From assembly GCA_038214755.1 (NCBI GenBank), contig JBBQRQ010000098.1, forward strand, positions 1 through 19,162: a stretch of 19,162 nt of DNA. The letters are read 5' to 3'. Position numbers and translations under genes: made by a program. The notes under the pieces were generated by a model. The model was not told the origin of the DNA. It ran no database searches and saw only the letters and a list, made by a program, of their open reading frames with translations. Shown piece after piece: positions 1 to 3,039 of the stretch; position 1 is the stretch's first letter; the number at the start of each line of letters is the position of its first letter. Source of the DNA: Verrucomicrobiota bacterium. GTDB taxonomy: Bacteria > Verrucomicrobiota > Verrucomicrobiia > Limisphaerales > CANJXF01.

Positions 1-42
1 CCCTCTCCCCCGAGGAGCAACGGTGTTCAAAAGCAAAGGAAA

Positions 43-1002
43 TTAAGCGGGTTGGATTTTGGTTTTTTGGCAATGGAGGGCGTGTTCTTTGAGGAGGCGA
101 TTCATTTGGAGGAGGAGTTTGCGCATGACCGCAGTGAGGGCGACCTTGGCCGGTTTGCCGGACGCGCGCAGATGCGCATAAAATTTACCCAGGGTGGTTT
201 GCTTCATCCGGGCCAATCCCACGGCGCTCATGTAGAGAGCGCGTCGCACCGCCGCACGACCGCCGCCAATATGGCGCTGGCCTTCCCAAGGACCGCTCTG
301 CCTGACCCACGGGGCCAGTCCCGCCAAGGCAGCGGCCTCCTGGCGGTTGAGCTGGCCCAGTTCCGGCAGGTGGCTTAACACGCTTAAGGCCGTGACGGTT
401 CCCACTGCCTCCAGCGTGGTGAGTTGCTGGACTTGCTCCTGAATGTAGGGCGCGCGATCCAGCGCCTTTTCACATTCTTTTTCCACCTCGGTCAATTGTT
501 TTTCCAAGTGGGCCACCAGCTTTTTTTGTTGCCGCGCCACGAAGGCGGGAACGCCGTGCTCCACCACTTGGCGGGCCCGGCTCAGATGTTCTTTGAGGTG
601 GTCGCGCCATTGCACCAGAGCCCGCAGTTCGACCCGGGCCGGCTCGCTCGGAGGCGTGGGCTCAGGGCGCAGAGCCACGCCGTAGGCGGTGAGAACCTGC
701 GCATCGAGCGGATCATTTTTAGCGCGTTGACCCTGAGCCAGGGCGAAGTGGCGGACCAGGGCGGGGTTGAGCACACTCACGGCCCGACCGGCGGCGTGGA
801 GCGCGGCGACGACACCTTTTTCATAGCCACCAGTCGCTTCGCAGACGATCTGCAGGCCGGGGAGGGCGCGGATCTTTTTGAGGAGATCGGCATAGCCTTT
901 GGGATTATTGTCCAGGACGTGGTGGACGTTTTGGAGGTGGAGTTGGAGGGTGGCTTTGGCAATATCCAACCCGGCATAGACGGTGGTGTTTTTTTCGTTC
1001 AT
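43..1002 (-). CDS. IS110-family DEDD transposase / bridge recombinase (319 aa)
   Basis: RuvC-like DEDD motifs GLDIAK, VCEATGGY and AKNDPLDA. C-terminal Tnp domain with AALAGLAPWVRQSG (catalytic Ser position) and GKPAKVALTAVMRKLL. ATG at 1002 (MNEKNTTVYAGLD) is preferred over the ORF-track start at 1044. Confidence 0.96.
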   Translation of the reverse strand: MNEKNTTVYAGLDIAKATLQLHLQNVHHVLDNNPKGYADLLKKIRALPGLQIVCEATGGYEKGVVAALHAAGRAVSVLNPALVRHFALAQGQRAKNDPLDAQVLTAYGVALRPEPTPPSEPARVELRALVQWRDHLKEHLSRARQVVEHGVPAFVARQQKKLVAHLEKQLTEVEKECEKALDRAPYIQEQVQQLTTLEAVGTVTALSVLSHLPELGQLNRQEAAALAGLAPWVRQSGPWEGQRHIGGGRAAVRRALYMSAVGLARMKQTTLGKFYAHLRASGKPAKVALTAVMRKLLLQMNRLLKEHALHCQKTKIQPA

Positions 1003-1009
1003 TTTATTA

Positions 1010-1220
1010 ATATTGTTCGATCTCTGACTTGCACATTCGAGCACGACGCGCCTGGTGGCGTGACGGCTCCATCAACGGTTCGAGTGCGGACAAGAAGGCC
1101 CGAGCGGCTCTGGCTCCTCGACAAACGTGGAAACGTTTCAGAGGGCAACGAGCGCGCCCGCGCCGCCGCCGTCCCCCCGGCCGGGGGGACGGCGGCCCCA
1201 TCTTCCCGTTCGGCGGAAAG
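1010..1220 (-). ncRNA. Predicted bridge RNA of the IS110 element (5' hairpins, target-binding loop, donor-binding loop); ends approximate
   Basis: Minus strand contains guide-like segments TTGCCCTCT (1148-1140) and CGAGGAG (1120-1114) around the stem AAACGT-TTCC-ACGTTT, and ACCGTTG (1079-1073) and TGTGCAAG (1035-1028) around a second stem. These match the reconstructed target and donor junctions. Confidence 0.85.
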
Positions 1221-1378
1221 CCAAACAAGAAAGATGAAAACAAACATACAAGAGGGAACCGGCAATCGACATTTCTTGGAAGTTCGGAAGCTCGTTGTGT
1301 CATCCCCGCGTTTTGGTTATTCGCAGCGGAAGACAGACAAAGACCCAGGTATCGACATTAACAGAACGCGGCGAAGAT

Positions 1379-1413
1379 TCTCCCTCTCCTCGGAGGAGAG
1401 GGGCGGGGTGAGG
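1379..1413 (+). repeat. REP-like palindrome (CCCTCTCCT-CGG-AGGAGAGGG followed by GCGGGGTGAGG); inverted partner of the copy interrupted by the IS110
   Basis: 9-bp hairpin at 1382-1402. Its reverse complement CCCTCTCCTCCGAGGAGAGGG differs by 1 nt from the reconstructed pre-insertion site CCCTCTCCCCCGAGGAGAGGG (1-17 joined to 1253-1256). Confidence 0.8.
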
Positions 1414-1427
1414 TCGAACGTTTCTTT

Positions 1428-2393
1428 TTACTGATTGATTCTGGCTGAGAGAATCGTCGCCCGCCTTTCAATGAATTGCGCCATGATGCTCACGGCAATT
1501 TCCTCCACGCTCCGCGATTGAATTTTAATTCCAACCGGACACGCGACGCGCTGGAGTTGTTCTCTCGTGGCAATTTTTTCTTCCAAAAAGTGATCGAAAA
1601 TAATTTGCGCTTTGCGCGCGCTGCCGATCATCCCGATGAAAGAAAAATCTTTTTGAATCCAGTCATTCAGAACCAAGGCGTCGTGGCGATGACCACGCGT
1701 GACGATCAGACCAAAGCTCGGCGCGTCCGGCAGCCGTTCCCCAAGAAGTTTTTCCCAGACATCGGCGCGCAACGAAATTTCACTCGGAAAATAATTGTGA
1801 TTGGCGAGCGCGGGTCGGTCGTCGAAAACGGTCACGGCAAAATCGAGTTGTGCAGCGAGCGGCGCGACGGCTTGGGCGATGTGGCCTGCGCCCGCGATCC
1901 AGAGGGCACATGGCGGAGTGATTGTTTCGTGATAGAGCCAGTCTGAATCAGGAAAGTGAGAAAGTGAGAAAGTGGGTGAGTGGGAGTCGAGGCGCACGAG
2001 ATCAAAGTTCTTCTTCACGCCCCAATCGAGGGATGATTTTCGCTCGGCAAGTTCACCCCAAAATTTATCTCCGACCTTTTGCGCGTTTGATAAAATCACT
2101 CCGAAAACTTTTCCGCCGCAAATCAGTCCATCGTCCCAGCCGAAATCATGATCGAGCAGCAAATCAAATGTAGAAGACTCGCCCGTTTGCAGCGAGCGAA
2201 TCGCGCGCTGTTGAATTTCCGCCTCGAGACAACCGCCGCCGAGCGTCCCGACGATTCGACCATCGAGATAAAATAAAGCTTTCGCTCCGATTTTTTGCGG
2301 GCTGGAACCTTTGACGCCAGTGATAATTCCCAGCGAAACTTTTTCTGGTTGGCGGGCGGCGTCGGCCAGCGCCGCGAAGACCGATGGTTTCAT
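1428..2393 (-). CDS. xdhC: XdhC/CoxI family molybdoenzyme (xanthine/CO dehydrogenase) maturation factor
   Basis: Motifs GSSPQKIGAK, GTLGGGCLE, GLICGG, IAGAGHIA, VFDDRP, VTRGHRHD, IGMIGSARK, CPVGI and EEIAVSIMAQ. ATG at 2393 (MKPSVF) avoids overlap with the upstream gene. Confidence 0.9.
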   Translation of the reverse strand: MKPSVFAALADAARQPEKVSLGIITGVKGSSPQKIGAKALFYLDGRIVGTLGGGCLEAEIQQRAIRSLQTGESSTFDLLLDHDFGWDDGLICGGKVFGVILSNAQKVGDKFWGELAERKSSLDWGVKKNFDLVRLDSHSPTFSLSHFPDSDWLYHETITPPCALWIAGAGHIAQAVAPLAAQLDFAVTVFDDRPALANHNYFPSEISLRADVWEKLLGERLPDAPSFGLIVTRGHRHDALVLNDWIQKDFSFIGMIGSARKAQIIFDHFLEEKIATREQLQRVACPVGIKIQSRSVEEIAVSIMAQFIERRATILSARINQ

Positions 2394-2433
2394 TTTGCGC
2401 CGATGATTTGGAAAAAATCTTTCACTCCTTAAA

Positions 2434-2931
2434 CTATTTTTTCTCCAACTCCTTTTTCTCCAATTCTTTTTTATCGAGGTCTTTCTTATCAAGCTCTTTG
2501 AGTTTTTTTACCGCCTGGCTGTTGCCGTTGGTCGCGGAGGAATAAAGCCATTTTCGCGCAAGCTTCGGATCTTTTTCCAAACCGTCGCCCGTCAGATAAC
2601 GCATGCCCAAATCGTATTGCGCCGATGGTGCGCCGGATTCCGCGCGTTTTTTTTGAAACTCGATGGTCTTGCGCAGCATCTCATCTTTTTGCTCCTTGGT
2701 TTTTTCGGGAACGACATTGGTCAAGATCGGCAAAGGCGGAGGAGTCGTTGTGATGCGCGGGGTCGCTGGAGGAGCGGGCGTGGCAGGCGCGCCAGGTTGG
2801 GAGGGTTGAACGAGCGTGTTGTCAGGGTTAACAACTCGGCGGGTTAATTTTCGCGCTTGTGCGCTGGCTGTAAATTCAACGGCGAAACAGGTGAGGAGAA
2901 TGACGAACGCGCTGACACGAAATGTTTTCAT
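2434..2931 (-). CDS. Secreted Sel1-like repeat protein with Pro-rich linker
   Basis: N-terminal signal peptide (MKTFRVSAFVILL...ASA), Pro/Thr-rich segment, Sel1 repeat AESGAPSAQYDLGMRYLTGDGLEKDPKLARKWLYSSATNGN, and a KKELE-type repeated tail. Confidence 0.8.
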   Translation of the reverse strand: MKTFRVSAFVILLTCFAVEFTASAQARKLTRRVVNPDNTLVQPSQPGAPATPAPPATPRITTTPPPLPILTNVVPEKTKEQKDEMLRKTIEFQKKRAESGAPSAQYDLGMRYLTGDGLEKDPKLARKWLYSSATNGNSQAVKKLKELDKKDLDKKELEKKELEKK

Positions 2932-3039
2932 AGGCGTGGCGAAGTTTAACGAGATTGAATTCGTTGTCGAATCGAACTTTGACAGCTTTCAGACTTGAGT
3001 ATCAACCGGACCGTCGCATGATGAAAGACGTTTTCCAAG

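What the first reader, a model, noticed from the sequence alone, without database searches (positions are those of the whole stretch)
1..1413. The IS110 is targeted to a REP-like hairpin, with an unoccupied second target about 130 bp away
Seen: joining 1-17 to 1253 onward restores CCCTCTCCCCCGAGGAGAGGG. An inverted sister copy at 1379-1413 contains TCTCCCT-CT-CCTCG (1379-1392), which matches the right target guide perfectly and the left guide at 7/9, yet is empty. Before insertion the two copies formed an inverted doublet downstream of xdhC. Established: IS621 targets REP sequences in E. coli. Inference: this element is programmed against a different, CCCTCTCC-type repeat family, giving it many intergenic safe sites. 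The guide mismatches fall where the two REP copies differ from each other or from the guide (positions 1-3).
Basis: partly seen in the sequence, partly recalled or inferred. Interest (0 to 1): 0.72.

Follow-up and report, generated by a model that had tools for sequence, protein, structure and literature searches.

The report
REP-targeting IS110 bridge-RNA insertion sequence
A small jumping gene of the RNA-guided IS110 type sits in one arm of a short palindromic repeat that occurs over a hundred times in this genome, which is a well-known habit of this transposon family and not a new mechanism.

Summary
Window 18-1250 (minus strand) is a 1.2-kb IS110-family element flanked by the core dinucleotide CT (+ strand AG at 16-17 and 1251-1252). 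Removing it restores CCCTCTCCCCCGAGGAGAGGG, a hairpin present 40 times verbatim in this genome.

- **Guides.** Its left end encodes an IS621-type bridge RNA. The right target guide CGAGGAG (1114-1120) is the exact complement of CT+CCTCG. The left target guide UUGCCCUCU (1140-1148) matches CCCTCT plus 1 of 3 distal bases.
- **Covariation.** In 8 of 8 related elements with both junctions, the right guide matches its own flank 7/7.
- **Copies.** The genome holds at least 4 copies (4 distinct right-end and 3 left-end junctions). All lie at the same position and orientation in the same hairpin family.
- **Targets.** The 11-mer CCCTCTCCTCG occurs 133 times, 128 in hairpin context and mostly outside long ORFs.
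- **Sister site.** 1382-1392 is a perfect empty target. This is the norm: 80 of the 133 sites lie in 40 back-to-back pairs, because the repeats form the ends of two MITE-like composite families.
- **Empty allele.** None was found; relatives lack the composite altogether.

This is a new member of a known kind, like IS621, ISPpu9 and ISPpu10.

The parts
1..17 (-). Right-end flank: target right half (CT+CCTCG GGGGAGAGGG on the minus strand). Core CT = + strand AG at 16-17. Contig edge.
   Evidence: The same flank occurs at C30, C81, C109 and C14.
18..1250 (-). IS110-family insertion sequence body (1233 bp; 1235 bp with one core copy).
   Evidence: The ends ACACCGTTG / TGTATG are conserved in relatives.
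43..1005 (-). Transposase (bridge recombinase), 320 aa from the ATG at 1005. An upstream GTG at 1044 would give 333 aa.
   Evidence: PF01548 + PF02371. NF033542 at 182.5 bits, cut-off 140. IS621 8wt6 E 2.1e-25 and ISCro4 9t56 E 1.5e-26.
1006..1250 (-). Left non-coding end encoding the bridge RNA: two 5' hairpins, a target-binding loop and a donor-binding loop.
   Evidence: Fold z-score -6.1. Consensus structure of 9 elements: 69 pairs, 30 with compensatory changes.
1140..1148 (-). Left target guide UUGCCCUCU.
1114..1120 (-). Right target guide CGAGGAG, the complement of CT+CCTCG.
   Evidence: Right guides are 7/7 to their own flank in 8 of 8 elements.
1071..1079 (-). Left donor guide ACCGUUGAU. 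It matches the right-end terminus ACCGTTG; the first core position is mismatched.
1028..1034 (-). Right donor guide GUGCAAG. It pairs with CT+TGTAT of the left-end start, using two G:T wobbles.
   Evidence: The consensus fold pairs columns 1-9 with 227-235.
1251..1256 (-). Core CT (1251-1252) and left target CCCT (1253-1256) on the transposase strand.
1253..1440 (.). Remainder of a roughly 280-bp MITE-like composite repeat: residual left hairpin arm, a conserved core of about 125 bp, then the right REP unit with its GGGGTGAGG tail.
   Evidence: 13 uninterrupted paralogues plus C8. (spacing class near 135).
1382..1402 (+). Sister hairpin CCCTCTCCTCGGAGGAGAGGG. The empty target is CCCT(1382-1385)-CT(1386-1387)-CCTCG(1388-1392).
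   Evidence: The 21-mer is identical to the target restored by joining the C109 right-end flank to the shared left-end flank AGGG. Contiguous in the run's contigs (records 5 and 6).
1428..2492 (-). xdhC (XdhC_CoxI + XdhC_C), with its 3' end facing the repeat.

Best explanation
Window 18-1250 is an active-looking IS110-subgroup insertion sequence. Its left end encodes an IS621-type bridge RNA. The target-binding loop is programmed for CCCT-CT-CCTCG. This sequence is one arm plus the loop of a CCCTCTCC-type REP-like hairpin, specifically the arm away from the GGGGTGAGG tail. The element presumably excises as a circle. The bridge RNA would then pair its donor loop with the right-end/left-end junction (ACCGTTG-CT-TGTAT) and its target loop with the hairpin, and the recombinase would exchange strands at the CT core.

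The genome offers about 130 such sites, almost all in extragenic repeats, and at least 4 are occupied. The sister hairpin 130 bp away is simply another unused site. These repeats occur mostly as back-to-back pairs because they form the terminal inverted repeats of two composite MITE-like families.

Shown: the anatomy, guide-target complementarity, guide-flank covariation, multiple identical copies at one site type, and the target census. Inferred: circle formation, RNA expression and present-day activity.
For: - **Protein.** PF01548 + PF02371. NF033542 'IS110 family RNA-guided transposase' at 182.5 bits against a cut-off of 140. Homology to the IS621 and ISCro4 structures.
- **Ends.** CT core on both sides and no inverted repeats.
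- **RNA.** The left end folds with z-score -6.1. The consensus fold of 9 left ends has 69 pairs, 30 with compensatory changes, and pairs the right donor guide with the left-end start.
- **Right-guide covariation.** The right guide matches its own right-target flank 7/7 in 8 of 8 elements carrying 7 different guides. Non-cognate pairs average 2.0 of 5 non-core positions, maximum 4, n=54.
- **Copies.** Right-end junctions at C30 (the same junction as window 1-17), C81, C109 and C14. Left-end junctions at C98, C33 and C8. All lie in the same arm. The IS parts of the junction contigs are 100% identical. Summed depth over the IS bins is 49-108 against 24.7 for the unique flank.
- **Census.** 133 target 11-mers. 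128 of 133 have the distal arm within 1 mismatch and 122 of 133 have the tail. 32 of 133 lie in stop-to-stop ORFs of 200 aa or more, which cover 82% of the genome.
Against: - **Left-guide pairing is weak.** Left-guide positions 1-3 (UUG) do not match the flank at any of the three left-end junctions beyond 1 of 3 (GTT, TCT, CCT). None of the 121 of 133 listed target flanks ends in TTG. IS621 tolerates mismatches poorly (PMC11208160), so pairing here is only 4+2+5 nt, or something else adds specificity.
- **Two relatives fit badly.** L017 and L026 show poor left-guide/flank agreement (3/9 and 1/9). For L026 my left boundary is uncertain.
- **No promoter found.** No sigma-70-like promoter lies on the minus strand in the integrated context.
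- **No direct evidence of activity.** The only run found holds contigs, not raw reads.
- **This is a binned metagenome assembly.** Junction contigs could come from co-existing strains.
Confidence: 0.9

Rival explanations
1. The hairpin is recognised mainly by the protein, or as a DNA structure, and the RNA complementarity is secondary. The element would then be REP-specific because the recombinase reads the stem-loop.
For: Only 6-7 of 9 left-guide positions pair at natural sites. 128 of 133 target 11-mers lie in a hairpin, so sequence and structure cannot be separated here. A preprint on ISPpu10 reports a target stem-loop as an added specificity determinant (10.64898/2026.03.19.712850; abstract and section 7 read).
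Against: The right guide tracks the flank perfectly through 7 different guide sequences, including non-REP targets such as GCTA-CT-TCGGA in L015 and CT-GCCGT in L021/L022. A structure reader would not need that. On the nearly perfect palindrome CCCTCTCCTC-G-GAGGAGAGGG, both occupied sites of this type (2 of 2) use the strand whose centre base pairs with the guide.
Confidence: 0.07
2. The copies did not arise by targeted transposition. They arose by duplication or homologous recombination of a repeat that already carried the element.
For: All copies sit in members of repeat families, and the IS parts are identical.
Against: Flanks diverge completely beyond the roughly 65-nt repeat unit. The occupied repeats belong to different families (spacing classes near 135 for C98 and C8, near 78 for C33) and to two hairpin variants with loops CCCGA and TCCGA.
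Confidence: 0.02
3. Assembly artefact: the junction at the contig edge is chimeric and the element is not really next to xdhC.
For: The window begins at base 1 of contig C98. The element is a collapsed multi-copy repeat with 141-144-bp overlaps at contig ends.
Against: The left-end junction 1252/1253 is covered by a junction-specific contig in run X1 (1228-1394, depth 22.5) close to the unique flank depth of 24.7. The xdhB-like gene at the start of C30 lies next to the xdhC 3' end in two same-genus relatives, G003 and G004.
Confidence: 0.01

Closest known systems
IS621 of Escherichia coli (IS110 family; bridge RNA; Durrant 2024 PMC11208160, Hiraizumi 2024 PMC11208158)
   Same: - Two-domain DEDD/Ser recombinase, detectable by sequence (E 2.1e-25).
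- CT core.
- Bridge RNA in the left end with target and donor loops of the same geometry.
- Natural target is a REP element (stated in PMC11208160; original report by Choi 2003 seen only as a reference entry).
   Different: - The target is a different repeat family: CCCT-CT-CCTCG against ATCAGGC-CT-AC.
- Here the right guide pairs over 7 nt and the left guide effectively over 6. In IS621 the left side carries 7+2 and the natural right guide is 4 nt.
- The host is a Verrucomicrobiota metagenome-assembled genome (record titles of relatives).
ISPpu10 / ISPpu9 of Pseudomonas putida (Tobes & Pareja 2006 PMC1525189, abstract; preprint 10.64898/2026.03.19.712850, abstract and section 7; PMC12288879, abstract in listing)
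   Same: - IS110-family elements in several copies, all in REP sequences.
- Targets are almost all extragenic (97.1% reported) and often paired within 200 bp (40.8% reported).
- Here 101 of 133 targets lie outside long ORFs and 80 of 133 sit in back-to-back pairs.
   Different: - In ISPpu10 the stem-loop lies 5' of the target. Here the core lies inside the 5' arm of the hairpin, so insertion splits the stem.
- The repeat family is different.
REPIN / MITE-type repeat doublets
   Same: - Two inverted REP units flank a spacer.
- Many copies, extragenic.
   Different: - The spacers are long (about 125 and 68 bp) and themselves conserved at 72-80% identity, which is more MITE-like.
- No REP-flanked Y1 transposase was identified.

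Membership tests
IS110 family, IS110 subgroup (bridge-RNA-guided recombinase element) | [quoted passage not shown] | tested here: met
   (E 1.8e-17 and 3.2e-12, both above cut-off). (NF033542 at 182.5 bits, cut-off 140). (IS621, ISCro4).
IS110 family, IS110 subgroup (bridge-RNA-guided recombinase element) | No terminal inverted repeats; a short core (CT) at both junctions | tested here: met
   All junctions read ...ACACCGTTG-CT-target and target-CT-TGTATG...
IS110 family, IS110 subgroup (bridge-RNA-guided recombinase element) | Structured non-coding RNA in the left end, upstream of the recombinase gene, with two internal loops | tested here: met
   (69 pairs, 30 with compensatory changes in 9 elements). 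No Rfam family reached threshold.
IS110 family, IS110 subgroup (bridge-RNA-guided recombinase element) | Target-loop guides complementary to the target and covarying with it across orthologues | tested here: met
   Right guide 7/7 in 8 of 8 elements. Left guide 9, 8, 8, 7, 7, 6, 5, 3 and 1 of 9 in nine elements. So the right guide fully meets the feature and the left guide only partly.
IS110 family, IS110 subgroup (bridge-RNA-guided recombinase element) | Donor-loop guides complementary to the element's own ends | tested here: met
   ACCGUUG matches the right-end terminus. GUGCAAG pairs with the left-end start using two G:T wobbles. The first core position of the left donor guide is mismatched.
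IS110 family, IS110 subgroup (bridge-RNA-guided recombinase element) | Circular intermediate with a junction promoter; recombination activity | not testable with these tools
   Only contigs of one run were available. A conserved TTGC-17 nt-TATGT motif across the joined ends is read by eye. That is inference only.
REP elements | Short imperfect palindrome in high copy number | tested here: met
   154 perfect-stem hairpins; a unit of about 65 nt is conserved.
REP elements | Extragenic location | tested here: met
   32 of 133 lie in long ORFs that cover 82% of the genome. This is a crude ORF mask, not an annotation.
REP elements | Associated REP-flanked Y1 (RAYT) transposase | tested here: inconclusive
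   17 PF01797 matches, 6 of them strong. Two of the six were scanned against NCBIfam, and both hit IS200/IS605 at or just above the cut-off. None is closely flanked by these hairpins; the nearest is about 600 bp away on C58.

The most novel reading that the evidence does not exclude
In this Verrucomicrobiota clade of IS110 elements, natural retargeting works by flipping between the two arms and strands of one palindromic repeat family through changes in the right guide alone. On the nearly perfect palindrome CCCTCTCCTC-G-GAGGAGAGGG, the single 5' base of the right guide reads the central base and so sets both the arm and the orientation of insertion. The guide is C in this element and G in metagenome relative L038. 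The distal three left-guide bases are unpaired at all natural sites in this genome. They may be a leftover from an ancestor that targeted TTGCCCTCT, as L018 and L020 still do at 9/9. Specificity would then be made up by a longer right guide and perhaps by the hairpin itself.
Probability: 0.4. Interest if true: 0.45.

Novelty: new member of a known kind. Interest (0 to 1): 0.3.

Why it matters
It adds a clean natural example, from an uncultured Verrucomicrobiota lineage, of a bridge-RNA element whose guides can be read directly against more than 100 genomic targets and against relatives with reprogrammed guides. The set of closely related elements with right guides CGAGGAG, GGAGGAG, GGGGGAG, CGGGGAG and TGGGGAG is a ready-made natural series. 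It could be used to test how much of the left guide is needed and whether the target hairpin contributes to recognition. It does not change what is known about the mechanism.

Tried and rejected
- **Empty allele in relatives.** 40 related genomes were searched with window 1253-3000. xdhC is only 71-74% identical even within the genus. In G004 and G003 the xdhB-like gene and xdhC lie close together without the composite repeat.
- **Empty allele or circle in reads.** One run (X1, probably the source sample) holds the stretch, and only as contigs. No joint 17->1253 was reported, but with 17 bases on the left side none could be. The one joint near the site (1257->1376, side 26) looks like a repeat doublet from elsewhere. 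No conclusion.
- **Rfam.** No bridge-RNA family hit. Only sub-threshold chance-level hits and a weak whalefall-1 match to the repeat.
- **Promoter.** The sigma-70 scan found nothing on the minus strand near the left end.
- **RAYT link.** Y1 transposase genes are not flanked by these repeats.
- **Other IS110 paralogues.** tblastn of the transposase against the own genome found only this element's pieces.
- **L038 right-end junction.** The record is not held (error), so its right target is predicted, not seen.
- **Earlier scan notes.** None for this place.
- **Metagenome scan.** A search with the 24-nt left-end start gave a single locus.
Full report
**Observation.** The window is the first 19,162 bases of contig C98 of a 5.1-Mb, 175-contig genome.
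- Bases 1-17 read CCCTCTCCCCCGAGGAG and bases 1253 onward read AGGGAACC. Joined, they give CCCTCTCCCCCGAGGAGAGGG.
- The dinucleotide AG occurs at 16-17 and again at 1251-1252. It is CT on the transposase strand.
- The sister sequence TCTCCCTCTCCTCG is at 1379-1392 as stated. Its hairpin 1382-1402 folds as single-stranded DNA into a 9-bp stem with a 3-nt loop at -9.3 kcal/mol.

**The element.**
- The minus-strand ORF 43-1005 (320 aa from the ATG; 333 aa from an upstream GTG) carries PF01548 and PF02371.
- It scores 182.5 bits on NF033542, 'IS110 family RNA-guided transposase', whose cut-off is 140.
- It aligns to the solved IS621 (8wt6, E 2.1e-25) and ISCro4 (9t56, E 1.5e-26) recombinases.
- The gene is preceded by a 245-nt non-coding left end (1006-1250) and followed by a 25-nt right end (18-42). 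This is the IS110-subgroup layout.

**Bridge RNA.**
- The left end folds far better than shuffles (z-score -6.1).
- The search for related loci in genome contigs returned 16 loci (L014-L029), all from metagenome-assembled genomes and mostly titled Verrucomicrobiota or Pedosphaera.
- I aligned 9 left ends. I left out L018 (shortened left end), L023-L025 and L029 (copies of L022), L014 (no left end on its contig), and L027 and L028 (partial).
- The consensus fold has 69 pairs, 30 with compensatory changes. It pairs the 3' side of the second loop with the left-end start.
[quoted passage not shown] The 3' side pairs with the top strand over 4-7 nt, and both include the core.
- The four guides in this element are as follows.

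| Guide | Sequence | Window position | Match |
|---|---|---|---|
| Left target guide | UUGCCCUCU | 1140-1148 | CCCTCT plus 1 of 3 distal bases |
| Right target guide | CGAGGAG | 1114-1120 | Exact complement of CT+CCTCG |
| Left donor guide | ACCGUUGAU | 1071-1079 | Right-end terminus ACCGTTG |
| Right donor guide | GUGCAAG | 1028-1034 | CT+TGTAT of the left-end start, with two G:T wobbles |

**Covariation.**
- In the 8 elements for which both the right guide and the right-end flank are available (L019 ends before its right end), the right guide is complementary to its own flank at 7 of 7 positions in 8 of 8.
- There are seven different guide/flank pairs: CGAGGAG/CTCCTCG, TCCGAAG/CTTCGGA, GGGGGAG/CTCCCCC, CGGGGAG/CTCCCCG, TGGGGAG/CTCCCCA, ACGGCAG/CTGCCGT and AGCCCAG/CTGGGCT.
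- Non-cognate pairs match on average 2.0 of 5 non-core positions (maximum 4, n=54).
- The left guide agrees less well: 9, 8, 8, 7, 7, 6, 5, 3 and 1 of 9. The two worst are L017, whose left flank is not repeat-like, and L026, where my left boundary is uncertain.
- RNA guidance is therefore well supported for the right half and only partly supported for the left half.

**Other copies in this genome.**
- blastn of window 1-1420 against the genome and motif searches found right-end junctions at the ends of C30, C81, C109 and C14, besides window 1-17.
- All read ...CCTCACCC(C/T)(GG/AA)CC(C/A)TCTCC(C/T)CCGAGGAG|CAACGG.
- Left-end junctions are at C98, C33 and C8, all reading CATACAAG|AGGGA.
- The C30 junction is the same physical junction as window 1-17 (see 'Locus'). 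That leaves 4 distinct right-end and 3 left-end junctions, so at least 4 copies.
- The IS parts of these overlaps are 100% identical.
- Summed contig depth in the IS bins of run X1 is 49-108, against 24.7 in the unique flank.
- Flanks beyond the repeat unit are unrelated.
- Every junction is in the same arm of the hairpin and in the same orientation relative to the GGGGTGAGG tail.

**The target family.**

| Measure | Count |
|---|---|
| Occurrences of CCCTCTCCTCG, both strands (about 2.4 expected by length) | 133 |
| Perfect-stem hairpins CCCTCTCC-N3-8-GGAGAGGG | 154 |
| Loops among those hairpins | CCCGA 40, TCGGG 30, TCGGA 24, TCCGA 21 |
| 11-mers with the distal arm within one mismatch | 128 of 133 |
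| 11-mers with a GGGGTGAGG-like tail | 122 of 133 |
| 11-mers inside stop-to-stop ORFs of 200 aa or more (these ORFs cover 82% of the genome) | 32 of 133 |

- The conserved unit is about 65 nt.
- The ORF figure comes from a crude mask. One of the 32 is the window's own sister site, which lies inside a spurious antisense ORF.
- Among the 5-mers that precede the 11-mer, the 25 commonest (121 of 133 sites) include ATTCT (46) and AGGTT (21). None ends in TTG. Left-guide positions 1-3 are therefore unmatched genome-wide, not just at the sister site.

**Pairs and composites.**
- 94 of 133 sites have another site within 300 bp.
- 40 pairs are back-to-back with tails outward. Their spacings cluster near 78 (about 20 pairs) and near 135 (about 18 pairs).
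- The 135 class is a roughly 280-bp composite, shown by 13 uninterrupted paralogues of window 1251-1420 at 71-80% identity. It consists of a left REP unit (loop CCCGA), a conserved core of about 125 bp, and a right REP unit (loop TCGGA).
- The 78 class is a second composite family of about 215 bp (20 copies found, one at a contig edge without sequence shown).
- The insertions in C98 and C8 are in the left hairpin of 135-class copies. The insertion in C33 is in a 78-class copy.
- In all 3 of 3 known left-end flanks the partner hairpin is intact.
- With roughly 4 of 133 sites occupied, an empty partner is expected and says nothing about immunity.

**The sister site.**
- The sequence 1382-1402 is CCCTCTCCTCGGAGGAGAGGG. 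It is identical to the 21-nt target that results when the C109 right-end flank is joined to the left-end flank AGGG shared by all three left-end junctions.
- Its left-target triplet TCT equals that of the C33 insertion.
- It matches the right guide 7/7 and the left guide 7/9. The window's own occupied site is also 7/9.
- It is therefore a fully competent, unused target.
- It is contiguous in the contigs of run X1 (records 5 and 6).

**Arm choice.**
- This hairpin variant is a perfect 10-1-10 palindrome. The two strands differ only in the central base (CCTCG against CCTCC) and in the outside flanks.
- Both occupied sites of this variant (C109, C14) use the CCTCG strand.
- Metagenome relative L038 shares the first 24 nt of the left end. 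Its right guide is GGAGGAG, one base different, and its left flank is the tail-proximal arm (CCTCACCCCGGCCCT-CT). Its right-end flank could not be fetched.
- L016 and L018 also sit in the tail-proximal arm of CCCTCTCCCC-type hairpins, with right guides to match.
- L018 and L020 have left targets TTGCCCTCT, 9/9 to the same left guide as here (L020 scored).
- This suggests, but does not prove, that the window's element kept an ancestral left guide and changed arm through its right guide.

**Locus.**
- The gene at the start of C30 is a xanthine-dehydrogenase large-subunit-like ORF.
- Its homologue, at about 70-82% amino-acid identity by tblastx, lies directly beyond the 3' end of xdhC in same-genus genomes G004 and G003.
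- C30 in reverse is therefore the left neighbour of C98. The insertion lies between two convergent genes.
- In G004 the two genes nearly abut with no repeat between them. G003 has a different intergenic hairpin.
- The window's genome has an extra small ORF and the composite repeat at this position.
- The composite is thus itself lineage-specific. No empty allele of the IS site exists among the 40 relatives searched.
- The REP unit alone recurs at 85-95% identity in many genomes of the genus and order.

**Comparison with what is known.**
- REP targeting by IS110 elements is established:
  - for IS621 (PMC11208160);
  - for ISPpu9, ISPpu10, ISPa11, ISPsy8, ISRm19 and ISRm22 (Tobes & Pareja 2006, PMC1525189, abstract).
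- A 2026 preprint on ISPpu10 reports 97.1% extragenic targets and 40.8% in pairs under 200 bp. It also reports a target stem-loop as an added determinant (10.64898/2026.03.19.712850, abstract and section 7).
- The present case has the same logic with a different repeat family and host phylum, and with the pairing weight shifted to the right guide.
- I file it as a new member of a known kind.

**Caveats.**
- This is a binned metagenome assembly with collapsed repeats, so copy number and pairing of junctions are minimum estimates.
- Expression, circle formation and activity are inferred.
- A TTGC-17 nt-TATGT motif that would span the joined ends is conserved among the relatives. I read it by eye, and no tool tested it.

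Noticed in passing
window 1380-1415; L039 (G000:C14:1-3200) at 1285-2711; L041: The REP unit (hairpin plus GGGGTGAGG tail) gives repeated sub-threshold matches to Rfam whalefall-1 RNA (RF01762). Scores are 20-27 bits against a gathering score of 37, with E down to 5.8e-4. That orphan metagenome motif may be a repeat of this kind.
   Followed up: partly
L039 (G000:C14) 1262-2870: A tandem array of 6.2 copies of a 256-bp unit, each containing REP units (80% matches). It lies about 1.1 kb from another copy of the IS at the contig start. Two 7-bp microsatellites are at 693-878.
   Followed up: no
G000:C32, about 26072-26088: An exact 17-mer GAACACCGTTGCTCCTC, equal to the IS right-end terminus plus core plus the start of the target. 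It has no transposase nearby and sits in ORF-like sequence. Expected by chance about 6e-4 times. It could be a relic or a coincidence.
   Followed up: partly
L040 (G000:C30) 185-457, minus strand: A 90-aa ORF between the xdhB-like gene and the composite repeat. It is absent from the same position in relative G004. Function not examined.
   Followed up: no
window 1428-1445: The last codons and the stop of xdhC lie inside the tail of the right REP unit. The repeat therefore supplies the present C-terminus of the ORF.
   Followed up: no
L015 / L010 (G005:C183): The closest relative within the genus (77-78% aa) carries guides TTAGCTACT / TCCGAAG and sits at GCTA-CT-TCGGA. This is not a CCCTCTCC hairpin, so it is a natural reprogramming to another site.
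   Followed up: partly
L017: Its right-end junction is in a CCCTCTCCCC-type hairpin that matches its right guide. Its left flank (CGCAACC-CT) does not match its left guide (3/9). This may reflect a rearrangement at the left end.
   Followed up: no
G000, 17 places: There are many PF01797 (Y1 transposase) matches in the genome. Six are intact ORFs (four of 156-167 aa, two longer at 197 and 272 aa stop-to-stop). Two of the six were scanned against NCBIfam and hit IS200 at about the cut-off. None is closely flanked by the CCCTCTCC repeats.
   Followed up: partly
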